Below, one piece after another: positions 1,507 through 58,713 of a stretch of DNA of 64,000 nucleotides. Origin of the DNA: SAR202 cluster bacterium bin87 (lineage in GTDB: Bacteria; Chloroflexota; Dehalococcoidia; Lucifugimonadales; UBA3495). The notes beneath the pieces were generated by a model. The model was not told where the DNA came from. It ran no database searches and saw nothing but the letters and a program-made list of their open reading frames with translations. The stretch covers positions 51,180-115,179 of the forward strand of contig MPNC01000002.1 of the NCBI GenBank assembly GCA_002238825.1, read 5' to 3'. The first letter of the stretch is position 1. Every line of letters starts with the position of its first letter. A program made the translations under genes and the position numbers.

Positions 1507-1582
1507 GGGGATATAGCTCAACTGGGAGAGCGCGGCGTTCGCAATGCCGAGGTTGCGGGTTCGAGCCCCGCTATCTCCACCA
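1507..1582 (+). tRNA. tRNA-Ala (anticodon CGC), CCA encoded
   Basis: Hand-folded cloverleaf. Acceptor GGGGATA/TATCTCC with the G3:U70 alanine identity pair; D arm GCTC-AACTGGGA-GAGC; anticodon loop TTCGCAA; T arm GCGGG-TTCGAGC-CCCGC; ACCA end. Confidence 0.95.
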
Positions 1583-1592
1583 CTTCGTTTCT

Positions 1593-1669
1593 GCCCCTGT
1601 AGCTCAGTTGGATAGAGCGGCGGCGTCCTAAGTCGCGCGTCGGGGGTTCGAGTCCCTCCAGGGGTACCA
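1593..1669 (+). tRNA. tRNA-Arg (anticodon CCT), CCA encoded
   Basis: Cloverleaf. Acceptor GCCCCTG/CAGGGGT (G1-U72); D arm GCTC-AGTTGGATA-GAGC; anticodon stem GCGGC/GTCGC with loop GTCCTAA; T arm GGGGG-TTCGAGT-CCCTC; ACCA end. Confidence 0.92.
1655..1667 (+). repeat. attL core (13-bp direct repeat, within the 3' end of tRNA-Arg)
   Basis: CCTCCAGGGGTAC is identical to 11998-12010. It covers the T-stem 3' strand, the acceptor 3' strand, the discriminator and the first C of CCA. Confidence 0.8.
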
Positions 1670-53015: not shown

Positions 53016-53100
53016 GCGCGGTATGAGCGCATTTGCCGCCTTTACTATCCGGTGCTATGATTAACAGCCACGTCGCTAACGGTTAGCGGCGCATCAAAAT

Positions 53101-53456
53101 GGGGACGCGTAGGTTCGACAGGAGCGGTTTCTGACGGATTGCAGGCCGAGGTTGCTGCTGCCCTCGTTAAAACAGTGGCGAACAAACAACTGGCGAACGT
53201 GAATTCGCTCTAGCCGCCTAGTAGCGGCTACGTCTGTCACCAGTAAGTCCGGAAACTGGGAAGCGGACGTACAATAATTCCGGGATGCTACCCCAGGGAC
53301 ACCGATACTCGGGGCCATAGATTTTATCGGCTGGCGGTTGGGGCATCCTGTCGGCGGGAGTCCCCAGCAGCGAGACTAAATCGCCGAACACGCTTGTAGC
53401 ATATCCGATTAGGGGAGTTTCTGGACGGGGAGTGCGACTCTCCCCCGTCTCCACCA
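53101..53456 (+). ncRNA. ssrA: tmRNA (SsrA), one-piece, 356 nt including CCA
   Basis: 5' GGGGACGCGTAGGTTCGACAGG pairs with 3' CGTCTCCACCA (G3-U70). T arm GGGGAG-TGCGACT-CTCCCC. Internal tag frame GGC GAA CAA ACA ACT GGC GAA CGT GAA TTC GCT CTA GCC GCC TAG TAG (53177-53224) gives (G)EQTTGEREFALAA followed by a double stop. Confidence 0.92.
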
Positions 53457-54981
53457 TTCCCAGTTAAATGTCCGGTTTTGGCTGATCGCAGCGAAACATC
53501 GTTGCGTTCCGCCATCGCGAGCATGGTCTGGCAGTAGTCCGGTTTTGGGAGAACCCCGACGATCACTCGCTGATCAAGGTCCACGTACACGGCCTCGAGA
53601 AAGGTCCGCAAAATCCGGTTCCGGCGGCTGACGCACGACGAGTGCCATTCTGCGCCAAATTTCGCCAACTGATTGCCCGCATCGGTCGCTTCGTCGATTT
53701 CCGGGATGTGCGCGCCAACCATCTCAGCCTCGGCTCGGTTTTTCGTGACCGTATAGATTTTCCAGTCGATTTCCGCGGTCAAATAGAGGTGCCGGGCCCT
53801 GTCCACCTGTCCTTGAATGGCGTGTCGTTTTTGGATAGCGGCGGTGTGGTCCTGCCCCTTCACGTGGTGTTCGATGATCCAGTCCTCCCGCAGCCGGAAC
53901 CCCTCGAACAACCGCTCCACCTGCTCCTCAATCTGCCACCCCACGAACGCCTTCCCCCGGTGGCGACAGATCACGCTGAGGCCCCGGTACGGGCTCTTGT
54001 AGTACGTCTTGCCGCCCGCACCCTGGGTCTGGGACCACAACTCAGTCCCGCACTCGTGGCACCGCAACAGCCCGGTCAGCAGGTGAGGGTGCTCACTCTT
54101 CACGTTGCCCGATACCGAGCGCCGCGACCGGTTCTTCGCCTTCCGCTCCCGCACCGCCTCGAACAACTCCTCGTCGATCACCCCCTGGTGTCGGCCCGCA
54201 AAGTGCTCCTCCTTGTGCCTCACCTCTCCCAGGTAGAACCGATTCTTCAGCATATCCCGCACGCTGTAGTTGGTGAACCGTCGGCCGTCCCCTTCCACCA
54301 CCTCACCCATGATTACCTGGGGCTTCTTGCTCTTGGTCCGGAACCCCTGCTCGTTCAACCACCCCGCCAGCGTGCTCATCGACTCCACGCCCTTGGCGTA
54401 CCTCTGGAACATCTCCACCACCGCCTGGGCCTTCTCCCTCTCCACGTGGCACCGAGTGTGTCCCTCGTCAATCCCGTAGCACACCGCATCGCACCGCTCG
54501 TATCCGAAGGGCGGCTCCCCGTTGAACATTCCCTGCATAGCGCGCTCTCGCATCCCTTCCTGGTGTGGCCGGACAACGTGTCGGAGAAATACTGCGCAAA
54601 GGCCCCCGGCATGGTCATGAAGAGCCTGCCCTCGGGCGTGGTGTAGTCGATGTCCTGCGTGATGGACACATAGGTCACGTTGTTCTGGGAGAAGATTTGG
54701 AAGGTGTCGAGCATGACGCTGAAGTTCCGCGAAAACCTGTCCAGCGCATGGGTGATCACAACATCGAACACGTCCGACACGGCGTCTGCCAGGATTTGCC
54801 GGAAGGTTGGACGCTTTGCGGTGGATTCCCCCCACGCAGAGCGGCCTTCCTCGTCGTAGGTGCGCACCACTTCCCATCCTTTCTGAGCGCAGAACTCGTA
54901 GAAGGCGCGGCGTTGGGCGTCCAGCGAGTACCCTTCCAGCTGATCCTCGTCGCTAACTCGGAAGTATCCCGCTGCTCTCAT
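53324..54981 (-). pseudogene. Large serine recombinase, interrupted by a 1-nt frameshift; the ORF tail overlaps the tmRNA 3' end
   Basis: The N-terminal resolvase domain (AAGYFRVSDEDQ, ORF 54376..54981) joins the recombinase/zinc-ribbon/coiled-coil part (ORF 53324..54877; PPFGY, LLRCHECG) at TLSGHTRKG|MRERAMQG. One base appears to be missing in a G-run (CCC at 54554-54556 on +). The last ~44 codons are antisense to tmRNA (53327-53456). Confidence 0.85.
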
Positions 54982-55285
54982 CTACGTCCTCTTCTGCGTT
55001 AGTATCGACCGGCATTATAGATGGTGAGCGGCGTGATTCGAGGATCTCTCACACCACCTCGCCAGCCTCAAACAGGAAGCCCCGTATTTCCGGGGGAGGG
55101 TTCGGAATTGACTTTGTATGTCGGGCTTTGCGTGGTAATCGCTGCGTGGCCTCTGTTTACCTAAACGTAGCGAAACACCCGCCGGCTACGGACGAACCCA
55201 TTCCCACATGAGCGTCAGCAACGGTCCTGTTTGGTGAGACGTTACAGGTAAACCATCCTGACTTCCGCCTCCGTGAGAGGGTAAC

Positions 55286-55436: not shown

Positions 55437-55877
55437 TCAGTCGCAGAGGTGGTGGTGACATTCACGGGCTTGGCCGAACACAGCACGCACTACTTCGACG
55501 CCGTCGTACAATTCGTCGGGATCCACGACACCGGTTTCACACACCACTGCGCGGTTTTCCACCGGTCCCGACGCGCGTGCATTTCCGCACACCACGGCAT
55601 GGCCTTTCACGCGCGTGCCGCACACCTCGGCGTCGCCGCACACTGTGGCGTTTTCTTCAACGAAGGCGCCGTCCCTGATTAGAGCGTCACCAGACACCCG
55701 GGGGTGTCCGCGCACCACAGCAGAATCGGTCACCGCAGCTTTGTCTGCCACGACCGCGTAGCCTCTGACTACGCCGCCCCTGGCGATCTGCGTGTCGTCC
55801 AACACCCTTGCATATCCCGACACCTCCGGGTCCGGGCCCACGCGAGCAGTCTGGGCAACATCGGCGGAGTCAGCCAC
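55437..55877 (-). CDS. Left-handed beta-helix (hexapeptide-repeat-like) protein, function unknown
   Basis: 146 aa with period-6 repeats of the a.V.g.A.V.d type (VSGYARVLDDTQIARGGVVRGYAVVADKAAVTDSAVVRGHPRVSGDALIRDGAFV...). Confidence 0.6.
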   Translation of the reverse strand: MADSADVAQTARVGPDPEVSGYARVLDDTQIARGGVVRGYAVVADKAAVTDSAVVRGHPRVSGDALIRDGAFVEENATVCGDAEVCGTRVKGHAVVCGNARASGPVENRAVVCETGVVDPDELYDGVEVVRAVFGQARECHHHLCD

Positions 55878-56322
55878 CCATCCTCCGCCGTTGGGGTGTT
55901 TGTGAGCAGGGACCGGACCCTCCGCTTCATAGAGTCTTGCGGCGTGACGTCGGCTGCGGGAATGTCATTTGTGTGTTTTGACACGAAACTGTTAGGGCTG
56001 TTGTGTGGGTATTAATGCGAGCTGTTTGCGGATGACTTCTGCGTGCCAACAACCCTGTTTGCGTTTTATCCGTTGAAGCGCGGGGCCCGGGTTGTCAAAG
56101 TGCGGTGCCTGTGGTCGGAAAACAAGCTTGCGCTCAGGTTCGATATGAACTACGGTGCCGTACTTTGTCGCTGCTGTGTGGAAATAATATGGCGATGCGC
56201 GAAAAGAGTGTGATAGTTTGTGTGCCAATTTATGGACACTCTTGGGTATAACGTGCCTTTGCCGGTCTTGCCGGCGCTGGTTGGCTTGGCTTTTGTGCAT
56301 AAACGAGAGCGGGGTTTTATCG

Positions 56323-58713
56323 ATGGCGGATATGGACGAGCGGGATTTGGAGATTGCGGGGTTGCGGGAGCGTCTGTCGCTGTTGAGCGAGGCGAGCCTG
56401 CGCATCAACGACAGCCTGGATTTCGACCGGGTTTTGCAGGAGGTCCTCGAGAGCGCGCGTTCGCTGACGAAGGCCCGCTACGGGGTGATGGTTCTGTTCG
56501 ATGACGCGCTGCAGATACAGGATTTCATGGCTTCGGGAATGTCGCTGGAGCAGGCGGGGATGCTTTGGAACATGCCGGACGGATTGCGTTTCTTTGGGCA
56601 TATCGGTGGGCTTTCCGGACCGGTGAGGCATCCCGATTTCCAGAGGTACGCGCGGGAGTTGGACCTGCCCGAGCTCGAGTTCCCGGCACCCGTGAACTCG
56701 CCGCTGCCGGTGCTGTTTGCCCCGATTACCCATCGTGGCCGGCCGTCGGGTGTCATATACCTGGGCGACACCGCGGATGGTCGGGAGTTCTCGTCCGAGG
56801 ACGAGGAAACGTTGTTGATGTTCACCTCGCAGGCGGCGCTGGTCATCGCCAATGCCAGTTATTACCGTGATGAGCGCAGGGCTCGGGCGGACCTCGAGGC
56901 ACTGGTTGAGACGGCGCCGGTGGGCGTGATTGTTTTCGACGCGAGGACCGGAGTGCCGGTGTCGATCAACCTGGAGACCCGCCGGGTTGGTCGGGAGTTT
57001 TTCTCCGAGTCGCTTTCGGTCGAGGAGATCTTGCAGTTGCTCACGGTGCGTCGTGCTGACGGGTCTGAGATGTCGATGCGCGAGTTGCCCATGGCAGTCG
57101 CGCTCAGCAGCGGCGAGACGGTGCGTGCGGAGGAGGTGGTGCTGAGCATCCCGGATGGCGGCAGCATCACGGCCATCGTCAATGCGACGCCGATTCGCGG
57201 GAATGACGGGGAGATTGAGTCGTTTGTGGTGACGATGCAGGACATGACCCCGCTGCAGGATCTGGAAAGGCTGCGCGCGGAGTTTCTGGGGATGGTGAGT
57301 CATGAGCTGAGGACGCCGTTGACCTCGATACGGGGTTCGGCGAATACGCTGCTGGATGAGGGGGCTATGCTGGACCCGGTGGAGATGCGTCAGTTCCACC
57401 GGATAATCTTCGAGCAGTCGGAGCGTATGCGCGGTCTCATCAGCGATCTTCTGGACGTGGCCCGCATTGAGTCCGGGAGCCTGTCGGTGACTCCGGCGCC
57501 GGTGGAGGTGTCCGCGCTGGTGGAGGAGGCGAAGGGGGTATTCCTGGCTGCGGGAGGCGAGAACAATATCCGGATTGGCCTGCCCCCGGATTTGCCTATG
57601 GTGATGGCGGACCGGCGGCGCGTGGTGCAGGTATTGAACAACCTGCTGTCGAATGCAGTGCGGCATTCACCGGAGTCGTCGGTGATACGCGTGGGTGCGG
57701 CATCTGACGCTGTGCAGGTAGCGGTGAGCGTTTCGGACCGGGGGCGGGGCATCCCCGCGGATTTGCTGCCACGTTTGTTCCGGAAATTCTCGCGGTCTGC
57801 GGATGAAGAGCAGGAGGACACCGGGCTCGGTCTGGCCATCTGCAAGGGGATAGTGGAGGCGCACGGCGGTCGCATATGGGCGGAAAGTGATGGCCCCGAT
57901 ACGGGCGCCCGGTTCACGTTCACCCTTCCGGTGGCGCAAGATGCTCCGGCAGGTCGTGTGGATGGCGCCAGCGGTAGCGCGGTGCGCGCTCCGCTGGTAG
58001 GGGCATCAGGGGAGCGTCCCCGGGTTCTGGTAGTTGATGATGACCCGCAGACCCTCCGGTACGTGAGGGATGTGCTTTCCAGGGCTGGTTGCGTTCCCAG
58101 TGTCGTGGCTGATCCGCGGGAGGTGCCTCGGCTGGTGGATGAAGTTGCCCCGCACCTGGTTCTGCTGGACCTGATGTTGCCGGGCGCCGATGGGATTGAG
58201 CTGATGACGAACGTCCGGGAACTGTCGGCGGTGCCGGTTATCTTTCTGTCCGCGTACGGTCAGGATGAGGTGATAGTGAGAGCATTCCAGGCGGGTGCGG
58301 CCGATTACGTAGTAAAGCCATTTTCGCCCAGTGAACTCATGGCGAGAATTCAGGCTGCTCTGCCTCGTGGCCAATCACCGGCGCCTGCTGAGGCTCCTCG
58401 TGAACCCTACGTGTTCGGCGATCTGGTCATCGACTATTCTCGCCGCGACGTTTCGCTAAGGGGTGAGCCGGTGTTCTTGACTGCCACCGAGTATCGACTC
58501 CTGGCCGAGCTTTCGGCCCATGCCGGCCGGGTGATGACCCATAACCAGCTGCTGAAGCGGGTGTGGGATTCCGATGATGCCAGCAATTCCGGCTCGGTTC
58601 GGACCGTAGTGAAGCGGTTGCGGCAGAAGTTGGGCGACGCCGCGGGTGAGCCGGCCTACGTGTTCACCAGGCGTGGTGCGGGCTATTGGATGGCGGGTCC
58701 CGGTCTCGAGTAA
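56323..58713 (+). CDS. Single-polypeptide two-component protein: GAF - PAS - HisKA/HATPase histidine kinase - REC - OmpR/PhoB-type winged-helix DNA-binding domain
   Basis: GAF-like N-terminus. H-box GMVSHELRTPLTSIRG, N/G boxes (NLLSNAVRHSP, DRGRGIP, GLGLAICKGIVEAHGG). REC (VLVVDDD...LLDLMLPGADG...KPFS). C-terminal wHTH (LTATEYRLLAELSAHAGRVMTHNQLLKRVW...VKRLRQKLG...RGAGYWM). No TM segment. ATG at 56323. Confidence 0.88.
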   Translation: MADMDERDLEIAGLRERLSLLSEASLRINDSLDFDRVLQEVLESARSLTKARYGVMVLFDDALQIQDFMASGMSLEQAGMLWNMPDGLRFFGHIGGLSGPVRHPDFQRYARELDLPELEFPAPVNSPLPVLFAPITHRGRPSGVIYLGDTADGREFSSEDEETLLMFTSQAALVIANASYYRDERRARADLEALVETAPVGVIVFDARTGVPVSINLETRRVGREFFSESLSVEEILQLLTVRRADGSEMSMRELPMAVALSSGETVRAEEVVLSIPDGGSITAIVNATPIRGNDGEIESFVVTMQDMTPLQDLERLRAEFLGMVSHELRTPLTSIRGSANTLLDEGAMLDPVEMRQFHRIIFEQSERMRGLISDLLDVARIESGSLSVTPAPVEVSALVEEAKGVFLAAGGENNIRIGLPPDLPMVMADRRRVVQVLNNLLSNAVRHSPESSVIRVGAASDAVQVAVSVSDRGRGIPADLLPRLFRKFSRSADEEQEDTGLGLAICKGIVEAHGGRIWAESDGPDTGARFTFTLPVAQDAPAGRVDGASGSAVRAPLVGASGERPRVLVVDDDPQTLRYVRDVLSRAGCVPSVVADPREVPRLVDEVAPHLVLLDLMLPGADGIELMTNVRELSAVPVIFLSAYGQDEVIVRAFQAGAADYVVKPFSPSELMARIQAALPRGQSPAPAEAPREPYVFGDLVIDYSRRDVSLRGEPVFLTATEYRLLAELSAHAGRVMTHNQLLKRVWDSDDASNSGSVRTVVKRLRQKLGDAAGEPAYVFTRRGAGYWMAGPGLE

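What the first reader, a model, noticed from the sequence alone, without database searches (positions are those of the whole stretch)
53324..54981. Large serine recombinase abutting ssrA: the ORF runs antisense into the tmRNA and is broken by a single-base G-run frameshift
tmRNA genes are classical targets of tyrosine integrases. Here the gene directly at the ssrA 3' end is a large serine recombinase, with a resolvase domain (catalytic RVS), a recombinase domain, a CHECG zinc ribbon and a coiled coil.

Two features stand out:
1. The reading frame does not stop before the tmRNA. It continues for about 44 codons antisense through tmRNA positions 53327-53456, so the C-terminus and stop codon are provided by host ssrA sequence. 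The protein tail would differ between integrated and excised states. Integration-dependent gene truncation is known for some mycobacteriophage immunity cassettes.
2. The gene is split at TLSGHTRKG|MRERAMQG by loss of one G in a GGG(G) run (54554-54556). This could be a sequencing error, an inactivating mutation that fixes the island, or a phase-variable switch.

The DNA to the right is more A/T-rich up to about 56.3 kb and carries unusual cargo (beta-helix protein, fused two-component protein, giant secreted protein). The right island boundary is not in the window.
Basis: partly seen in the sequence, partly recalled or inferred. Interest (0 to 1): 0.65.

Follow-up and report, generated by a model that had tools for sequence, protein, structure and literature searches.

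The report
Decayed serine integrase beside tmRNA gene
This is a broken copy of a serine integrase of a kind already described in Dehalococcoides, which inserts mobile islands into the end of the tmRNA gene, so the arrangement is real but mostly ordinary and already known.

Summary
All three observations hold. A full-length tmRNA gene lies at 53101-53456 (+). A large serine recombinase (LSR) gene converges on it at 54981->53324 (-) and reads 43 codons antisense into it. One G is missing at 54554-54556.

The arrangement is not new. The LSR is a homologue of DsiB, the Dehalococcoides ssrA-specific integrase (39% identity, E 2e-98). McMurdie 2011 described the same layout, including that dsiB never stops before attL or ssrA.

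In 80 Chloroflexota genome loci, 42 have an antisense tmRNA right after the LSR. In 41 of 41 where the stop is known, the ORF runs into the tmRNA.

The frameshift is a real mutation. It is identical in four assemblies from four samples. The copy also has a 9-bp in-frame deletion, a dead upstream small ORF, a chimeric 5' third, and no repeat of the tmRNA 3' end within 20 kb. I read it as a recently inactivated, immobile remnant. The island's right edge and cargo are undetermined.

One possibly new point comes from relatives. Past the 17-nt att repeat, the island's far end carries an in-frame XRE helix-turn-helix. Excision may therefore rebuild an LSR-HTH fusion.

The parts
53101..53456 (+). tmRNA gene (ssrA), full length with encoded CCA. 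Its T-loop is UGCGACU rather than the usual UUCGANU.
   Evidence: Rfam RF00023, 124.3 bits, model positions 1-374 of 374. ARAGORN does not call it. The same T-loop variant occurs in L009-L011, L019-L022, L025 and L029.
53440..53456 (.). attL core: the 17-nt block CTCCCCCGTCTCCACCA. In relatives this block recurs as the direct repeat at island far ends and between tandem islands. The crossover is inferred to lie inside it.
   Evidence: Exact 17-mer repeats not followed by tmRNA occur in L006, L010, L012, L041 and others. L009 has a 14-nt version next to unrelated DNA that I take to be host flank.
53324..54981 (-). DsiB-like large serine recombinase pseudogene. It gives 552 aa if one G is restored.
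   Evidence: Pfam Resolvase, Recombinase and sub-threshold zinc ribbon. 90% identity to the intact 555-aa P0001. 39% identity, E 1.9e-98, to P0086, whose cluster holds DhcVS_1292 'SsrA integrase'.
54554..54556 (-). Frameshift site: GGG where intact relatives have four bases (GGGG, GGGA or AGGG).
   Evidence: The sequence is identical in L002-L005, from four samples.
53324..53456 (-). The ORF tail encoded antisense to the tmRNA: 43 codons plus the TAA stop.
   Evidence: The homologous tails of P0001, P0004, P0014 and others follow the tmRNA sequence of their hosts.
53884..53885 (-). Junction of a 9-bp in-frame deletion. One copy of the GACTGGATC repeat is lost, which removes three residues (IDW, equivalently DWI) including a nearly invariant Trp.
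54950..55138 (-). Remnant of a conserved 62-63-codon ORF that overlaps the LSR start in relatives. Here the ATG is TTA (55138-55136) and there is a premature TGA (55051-55049).
   Evidence: Alignment with L019-L025 and translations. No Pfam match.
54530..54981 (-). The divergent 5' third of the LSR. It differs at about 17% of sites from L001, L009 and L010, against about 2% for the rest of the gene, so the gene is a recombinant chimera.

Best explanation
This is the attL end of a DsiB-type ssrA-specific integrative island of a Dehalococcoidia (Chloroflexota) bacterium, now decayed.

How the family is inferred to work:
- The LSR recombines an attP that lies at the 3' end of its own reading frame with an attB in the last 14-17 nt of the tmRNA gene.
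- The island lands with the LSR gene converging on ssrA.
- The island supplies the terminal bases of the tmRNA, including CCA.
- The displaced native end becomes a direct repeat at the far boundary.
- Because attP sits before the natural stop codon, the integrated LSR always reads on into the antisense tmRNA until a chance stop.

In this window the system is dead. The LSR has a fixed 1-nt deletion and a 9-bp deletion. The small ORF upstream of it has lost its start and gained a stop. The gene is a chimera of two lineages, which could reflect recombination between LSR genes of tandem islands. No far-end repeat survives within 20 kb.

Shown here: the sequence anatomy, the homology, the family-wide pattern and the lesions. 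Inferred: the recombination chemistry, the crossover position and the history of decay.
For: - tmRNA and LSR domains.
- Homology to the DsiB cluster that contains DhcVS_1292.
- Published description of the same layout and the same overlap (PMC3146451).
- All 80 genome loci are Chloroflexota. 42 have an adjacent antisense tmRNA, and the ORF overlaps it in 41/41. The frame is kept open up to the att site non-randomly.
- 17-nt repeats and tandem islands occur in relatives.
- Nucleotide homology to the intact relatives L001 and L010 covers exactly 53100-54983, the tmRNA plus the LSR. L009 also shares the left flank but nothing right of 54983.
- The frameshift is identical in four assemblies.
- Further lesions and the chimera.
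- dN/dS against intact copies is 0.17-0.24, the same range as among intact copies (0.16-0.29), so the inactivation is recent.
Against: - No attR repeat, far-end HTH module or DsiA-like second recombinase lies in the window or the next 10 kb. The island's extent, and whether any cargo remains, are therefore unknown.
- No genome with an empty site was recovered.
- Nothing was tested experimentally.
- L018 has the same two deletions but is closer to intact copies than to the window. The lesions are therefore either recurrent or spread by gene conversion. This weakens a simple picture of a single fixation.
Confidence: 0.85

Rival explanations
1. The missing G is a sequencing or assembly error. The integrase is intact and the island is still mobile.
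For: It is a single-base change in a homopolymer, and the rest of the gene is open. dN/dS is low.
Against: - The sequence is identical in four assemblies from four samples (ENA ERZ27241798 and ERZ27241795; JGI 3300002222 and 3300027386), one of which differs from the window at 12 positions in the locus.
- 23 contigs carry the left flank and show no alternative arrangement.
- The gene also has a 9-bp deletion that removes a nearly invariant Trp, and the upstream ORF is dead.
Confidence: 0.04
2. The G-run is a phase-variable or programmed-frameshift switch that turns the integrase on and off.
For: An independent relative (L018) has the same one-G loss at the same place, although it is closer to intact copies than to the window. 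This suggests a slippage-prone site.
Against: - The run is only 3-4 bases long.
- No length variation appears among the four assemblies checked.
- There is no canonical slippery heptamer.
- Intact relatives encode this stretch in one frame.
- L018 is plainly a pseudogene, with a further frameshift and a roughly 69-bp deletion.
Confidence: 0.05
3. The genes to the right (hexapeptide-repeat protein, fused sensor kinase/response regulator, giant cadherin-like proteins) are cargo of a large island whose far end lies beyond 73.7 kb. They are not host genes left beside a stranded integrase.
For: - The region right of ssrA is unrelated in relatives that share the left flank (L009, L011, L021).
- The array reaches about 202 kb in one relative.
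- Other members carry large cargo, such as conjugation genes in L008 and defence genes in L001.
Against: - No repeat of the tmRNA end was found in 20 kb.
- G+C beyond 56.4 kb is typical of the genome.
- Giant repeat proteins similar at the domain level also lie beyond the islands in L010, which hints at host genes.
Confidence: 0.35

Closest known systems
DsiB and the ssrA-specific genomic islands of Dehalococcoides mccartyi (McMurdie et al. 2011, PMC3146451)
   Same: - A large serine recombinase on the reverse strand directly at the ssrA 3' end.
- Tandem islands bounded by a repeat of the tmRNA end.
- An ORF that never stops before attL or ssrA.
- Clear homology (39% identity, E 1.9e-98, to the cluster holding DhcVS_1292).
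   Different: - The host is a different, high-G+C Dehalococcoidia lineage with a roughly 4-Mb genome.
- The repeat is 17 nt here against 20 bp there.
- I found none of the module genes I looked for: no DsiA-like second serine recombinase, and no module-gene family among the neighbours scanned. I did not screen all of them.
- This copy is a pseudogene.
- In this subfamily the far end carries an in-frame HTH, which the passages of that paper I read do not mention.
CcrB of staphylococcal SCCmec
   Same: A large serine recombinase that inserts a non-replicating island at the 3' end of a single-copy essential gene. McMurdie et al. use it as their mechanistic model.
   Different: About 22% identity to DsiB, as reported in that paper. 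The target is different. CcrB works with CcrA, and no second recombinase is present here.
SSV-type 'suicidal' tyrosine integrases of archaeal viruses (PMC7253208)
   Same: The attachment site lies inside the integrase reading frame, so integration splits or alters the integrase gene.
   Different: They are tyrosine recombinases of archaea and are unrelated in sequence. There the catalytic gene is cut in two. Here only the extreme C-terminus changes.
Integration-dependent immunity of mycobacteriophage BPs and relatives (PMC4557955)
   Same: attP lies within a coding region, so the C-terminus of a protein differs between the integrated and free states.
   Different: There the gene is the repressor, the integrase is a tyrosine recombinase and the element is a phage. 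Here I found only two relatives (39% identity) of this family among viral contigs.

Membership tests
Large serine recombinases | N-terminal resolvase catalytic domain with the nucleophile Ser in an R-V-S context | tested here: met
   Pfam PF00239, 110.8 bits, residues 3-151. R8, V9 and S10 are invariant in the 17-sequence alignment.
Large serine recombinases | Recombinase domain followed by a zinc-ribbon domain with an embedded coiled coil | tested here: inconclusive
   PF07508 scores 61.6 bits, above threshold. PF13408 scores 24.1 bits, just under its 25.3 cut-off. C308, C311 and C339 are nearly invariant. I did not test the coiled coil.
DsiB / ssrA-specific island integrases | Sequence homology to Dehalococcoides DsiB | tested here: met
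   39% identity over 87% of the query, E 1.9e-98, to P0086. That cluster contains ACZ62392.1 = DhcVS_1292, 'SsrA integrase', which is the first dsiB named in PMC3146451.
DsiB / ssrA-specific island integrases | The gene lies on the opposite strand immediately at the ssrA 3' end, and its ORF overlaps attL or ssrA | tested here: met
   The same holds in 42 of 80 related genome loci, with ORF overlap in 41/41.
DsiB / ssrA-specific island integrases | [quoted passage not shown] | tested here: not met
   No match to the 21-mer at up to 5 mismatches, nor to a 13-mer at up to 2, between the LSR and window-equivalent 73.7 kb. Repeats are present in relatives.
DsiB / ssrA-specific island integrases | An accompanying integration module (DsiA small serine recombinase, RecF-like, ParB, Mom, embedded tRNA-like locus) | tested here: not met
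   No second resolvase-domain sequence in the window plus 10 kb. The neighbours scanned are a hexapeptide-repeat protein and a fused sensor kinase/regulator. I did not search individually for the other module genes.
DsiB / ssrA-specific island integrases | Catalytic competence and mobility | not testable with these tools
   The sequence predicts an inactive product, given the frameshift and the 9-bp deletion.
Phase-variable contingency locus | A long homopolymer or repeat tract whose length varies within a population | tested here: not met
   The tract is GGG and is identical in four assemblies. I could not inspect raw reads.

The most novel reading that the evidence does not exclude
In this LSR subfamily the complete integrase gene may exist only on the excised circle. 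The reading frame would cross attP and continue into an XRE-type helix-turn-helix domain of about 80 aa at the island's far end. Integration at ssrA would then cut off the HTH and replace it with an antisense-tmRNA tail. Excision, or a tandem neighbour, would restore an LSR-HTH fusion. That would be a built-in state sensor that could bias directionality or expression.

Support:
- In four divergent lineages (five sequences scanned: L009, L012, L041, P0042, P0062) the DNA after a non-tmRNA repeat is open in the LSR frame for 85-102 codons and matches Pfam HTH_3 above threshold.
- No ATG is conserved ahead of the HTH.
- The linker length varies only by whole codons.
- The LSR frame is kept open up to the att site.

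The window's own copy has lost this partner.
Probability: 0.4. Interest if true: 0.55.

Novelty: new member of a known kind. Interest (0 to 1): 0.3.

Why it matters
For this locus, little: it is a dead integrase marking an old insertion hot spot.

For the family, three points are useful.
- DsiB-type ssrA integration is not confined to organohalide-respiring Dehalococcoides. Every one of the 80 loci recovered from 185,579 species genomes is from Chloroflexota.
- The islands carry conjugation and defence cargo, and the arrays reach roughly 200 kb.
- The stop codon is systematically placed beyond attP.

If the in-frame HTH is really translated, it would be a serine-integrase counterpart of the split-gene logic known for SSV integrases and for BPs-type immunity. 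It would also be a candidate directionality control that needs no separate excision factor.

Tried and rejected
- I searched for the displaced tmRNA 3' fragment with a 34-mer, a 21-mer and a 13-mer at up to 5 mismatches, in the window and 10 kb beyond. Nothing was found.
- I searched for the far-end HTH module in the window by tblastn. Nothing scored below E = 0.1.
- Two exact-pattern scans of metagenome contigs for this clade's tmRNA 3' end, meant to find empty sites or other junctions, returned nothing. The collection evidently lacks these contigs.
- I looked for alternative arrangements through the left-flank methyltransferase. All 23 contigs agree with the window. The breaks in some assemblies are plain overlaps, not variants.
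- I looked for right-flank synteny with L009, L011 and L021 by tblastx. None was found, so the right boundary stays open.
- A codon-position test of whether the linker between the repeat and the HTH is translated had too few substitutions to decide.
- I considered that the element might supply the odd tmRNA T-loop (UGCGACU). I rejected this because the variant lies 5' of the 17-nt block and is shared by loci with unrelated LSR lineages, three of which also share the window's left flank.
- I considered a phage origin. The viral-contig scan found only two relatives, at 39% identity.

Full report
**What is there**

Rfam places a full-length tmRNA at 53101-53456 on the plus strand (124 bits, model positions 1-374 of 374, CCA encoded). 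ARAGORN does not call it, probably because the T-loop reads UGCGACU.

A recombinase gene runs on the minus strand from ATG 54981. The first frame carries the catalytic YFRVSDEDQ motif and ends in ...SGHTRKG. The rest of the protein continues in another frame from MRERAMQGMFNGEPPFGY. Restoring one G at 54554-54556 gives a 552-aa protein. Pfam finds Resolvase (110.8 bits), Recombinase (61.6 bits) and a near-threshold recombinase zinc ribbon (24.1 bits against 25.3).

The frame has no stop before the tmRNA. It reads 43 codons on the antisense strand and ends at TAA 53324-53326.

**It is a known kind of system**

The best database relatives are uncharacterised Chloroflexota proteins. At 39% identity (E 1.9e-98) the query matches P0086. 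That 90%-identity cluster contains ACZ62392.1 = DhcVS_1292, 'SsrA integrase' of Dehalococcoides mccartyi VS.

McMurdie et al. 2011 (PMC3146451) named this protein DsiB. They described:
- tandem islands downstream of ssrA, bounded by a 20-bp repeat of the tmRNA end;
- insertion in the T-loop;
- dsiB on the reverse strand next to attL;

They also speculated that dsiB may be complete only on the circle or next to a neighbouring island.

**The pattern across the family**

A scan of one genome per species returned 80 loci, all from Chloroflexota and mostly Dehalococcoidia MAGs.
- A tmRNA profile finds a full antisense tmRNA within 133 nt of the conserved LSR end in 42 of them.
- In all 41 where the stop is known, the ORF overlaps the tmRNA, by 23 to 426 nt and in different frames.
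- Among the few metagenome loci I fetched separately, one member (P0027, locus L007) has a stop 7 nt before the tmRNA.
- The stretch between the last conserved residue and the tmRNA is open in the LSR frame in 41/41 loci, against 46/82 in the other frames. For stretches of at least 45 nt the counts are 19/19 against 13/38.

The missing stop is therefore a maintained property of the family. The tail itself varies with the host tmRNA and with the frame, which argues against a conserved function for the antisense-encoded peptide.

**The att site**

In relatives the 17-mer TGGTGGAGACGGGGGAG recurs without a tmRNA behind it. This is the antisense form. The sense form, CTCCCCCGTCTCCACCA, is window 53440-53456. 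It recurs at island far ends and between tandem islands (L006, L010, L012, L041 and others).

In L009 only 14 nt are shared, next to unrelated DNA that I take to be host flank. I therefore infer that the crossover lies within these 14-17 nt and that the island supplies the last bases of the tmRNA, including CCA. The unusual T-loop lies 5' of this block. It is shared by loci with unrelated LSR lineages, three of which (L009, L011, L021) also share the window's left flank, so it is a host trait.

**Island or not**

Nucleotide homology to L001 and L010, which carry intact 555-aa copies about 90% identical in protein to the window's, covers exactly 53100-54983, the tmRNA plus the LSR.

L009, a 3.94-Mb Dehalococcoidia MAG chromosome, also has an intact copy. 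It is syntenic with the window on the left of the tmRNA (80-92% nucleotide identity) but unrelated to the right of 54983. L011 and L021 share the left flank too, yet carry other LSR lineages (81% and 54% protein identity). The right side of ssrA is thus a hypervariable insertion region, as in Dehalococcoides.

Cargo elsewhere includes conjugation genes (L008) and defence genes (L001). In one genome an LSR-repeat junction lies about 202 kb from the tmRNA, in the orientation expected for a tandem array.

**The window copy is dead**

- The frameshift context is identical in four assemblies from four samples. One of them differs from the window at 12 positions in the locus.
- 23 contigs carrying the left flank show no other arrangement.
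- The gene has lost 9 bp, one copy of a GACTGGATC tandem repeat, which removes a nearly invariant Trp.
- A conserved 62-63-codon ORF overlaps the LSR start in relatives. Here its ATG is TTA and it has a premature TGA.
- The gene is a chimera. Its first 453 nt differ at about 17% of sites from L001, L009 and L010, and the rest at about 2%. Its upstream region resembles other lineages.
- No tmRNA-end repeat, far-end module or second recombinase lies in the window or the next 10 kb.
- dN/dS against intact copies is 0.17-0.24, as among intact copies, so the inactivation is recent.

One oddity remains. L018 carries the same two deletions, yet it is closer to intact copies than to the window. This points to recurrent slippage or gene conversion.

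**A possibly new detail**

In this subfamily the island's far end, directly after the repeat, is open in the LSR frame for 85-102 codons. It encodes an XRE-type HTH (Pfam HTH_3, 24.9-40 bits, all above the 23-bit cut-off) in four divergent lineages. No ATG is conserved ahead of it, and the linker length differs only by whole codons.

In L009 and L010 the whole island is only about 3.1 kb: repeat, HTH, about 1.3 kb containing an ORF just upstream of the LSR, LSR, tmRNA. On the circle the LSR frame would therefore run into the HTH. Whether that fusion is translated is not established. The more distant DsiB-like subfamily lacks this feature.

**Verdict**

This locus is a recently inactivated member of the DsiB family, with an undetermined right boundary.

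Noticed in passing
window 53432-53438 (tmRNA T-loop): The T-loop reads UGCGACU, with G where tRNA-like T-loops almost always have U55. The variant is shared by L009-L011, L019-L022, L025 and L029, while other hosts of the family have UUCGACU. ARAGORN fails on this tmRNA.
   Followed up: partly
L018 10001-11555 (OX638345.1): A second LSR pseudogene has exactly the same one-G loss and the same 9-bp deletion as the window. By synonymous divergence it is closer to intact copies (0.17-0.20) than to the window (0.38). This suggests recurrent slippage at both sites, or gene conversion.
   Followed up: partly
window 54530-55190: The LSR is a mosaic. The upstream region and the first roughly 453 nt come from a lineage about 17-27% divergent from L001, L009 and L010, and the remainder is 93-99% identical to L009. 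The switch lies 30-100 nt 3' of the frameshift.
   Followed up: partly
window 54950-55138; L019-L025 just upstream of their LSR genes: A conserved 62-63-aa ORF (MPRKT..PPPEIRGFLAEVGEVVREYLE...) overlaps the LSR start. It has no Pfam match. It might be an accessory or directionality factor. It is dead in the window.
   Followed up: partly
L009 8454-11536; L010 8452-11536: Minimal islands of only about 3.1 kb: tmRNA-end repeat, HTH ORF, about 1.3 kb containing an ORF just upstream of the LSR, and the LSR abutting the tmRNA.
   Followed up: partly
L012 6278-9002 (CBDCPE010000004.1): A 444-aa transposase-like ORF is inserted into an outer LSR, whose remainder reads through the repeat into an HTH. 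I did not scan it against any family; it resembles IS66 TnpC from memory only. The locus lies about 202 kb from the tmRNA of the same contig, in array orientation.
   Followed up: no
L006 6216-7742 (P0002); L012 10001-11527 (P0003): A 508-aa LSR variant keeps high similarity to P0001 over roughly the first 400 residues but has a different C-terminal stretch of about 100 residues and its own stop codon. No tmRNA or repeat follows directly. It sits at the repeat-distal... rather, next to the HTH end of its island.
   Followed up: no
L008 82-6615; L001 1-8035: Cargo of related islands. L008 carries conjugation genes (TraC/VirB4-like, TraG-like, relaxase), so it looks like an integrative conjugative element. 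L001 carries defence-type genes (nSTAND3, OLD-like TOPRIM ATPase, N6 methyltransferase).
   Followed up: no
L037, L038, L054, L059 and others (the 36-40% subfamily): Around the repeat, an imperfect inverted repeat CGTGTTC ... GAACACG flanks the core about 40 nt apart. It looks like attP half-sites, centred near position 16-17 of the repeat.
   Followed up: no
window 53411-53509: Two contigs of JGI sample 3300027386 end here with a 99-nt overlap, and an ENA contig (L005) ends at 53449. That contig's 12 mismatches to the window all lie in 53528-53806. This suggests assembly-graph branching caused by a similar LSR 3' end elsewhere in the community.
   Followed up: partly
window 55437-55877 (-) and 56218-58713 (+): The neighbours are a 146-aa hexapeptide-repeat protein and an 831-aa protein that fuses GAF, PAS, histidine kinase, receiver and OmpR-type DNA-binding domains in one chain.
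   Followed up: partly
window 1507-1669: Adjacent tRNA-Ala(CGC) and tRNA-Arg(CCU) genes.
   Followed up: no
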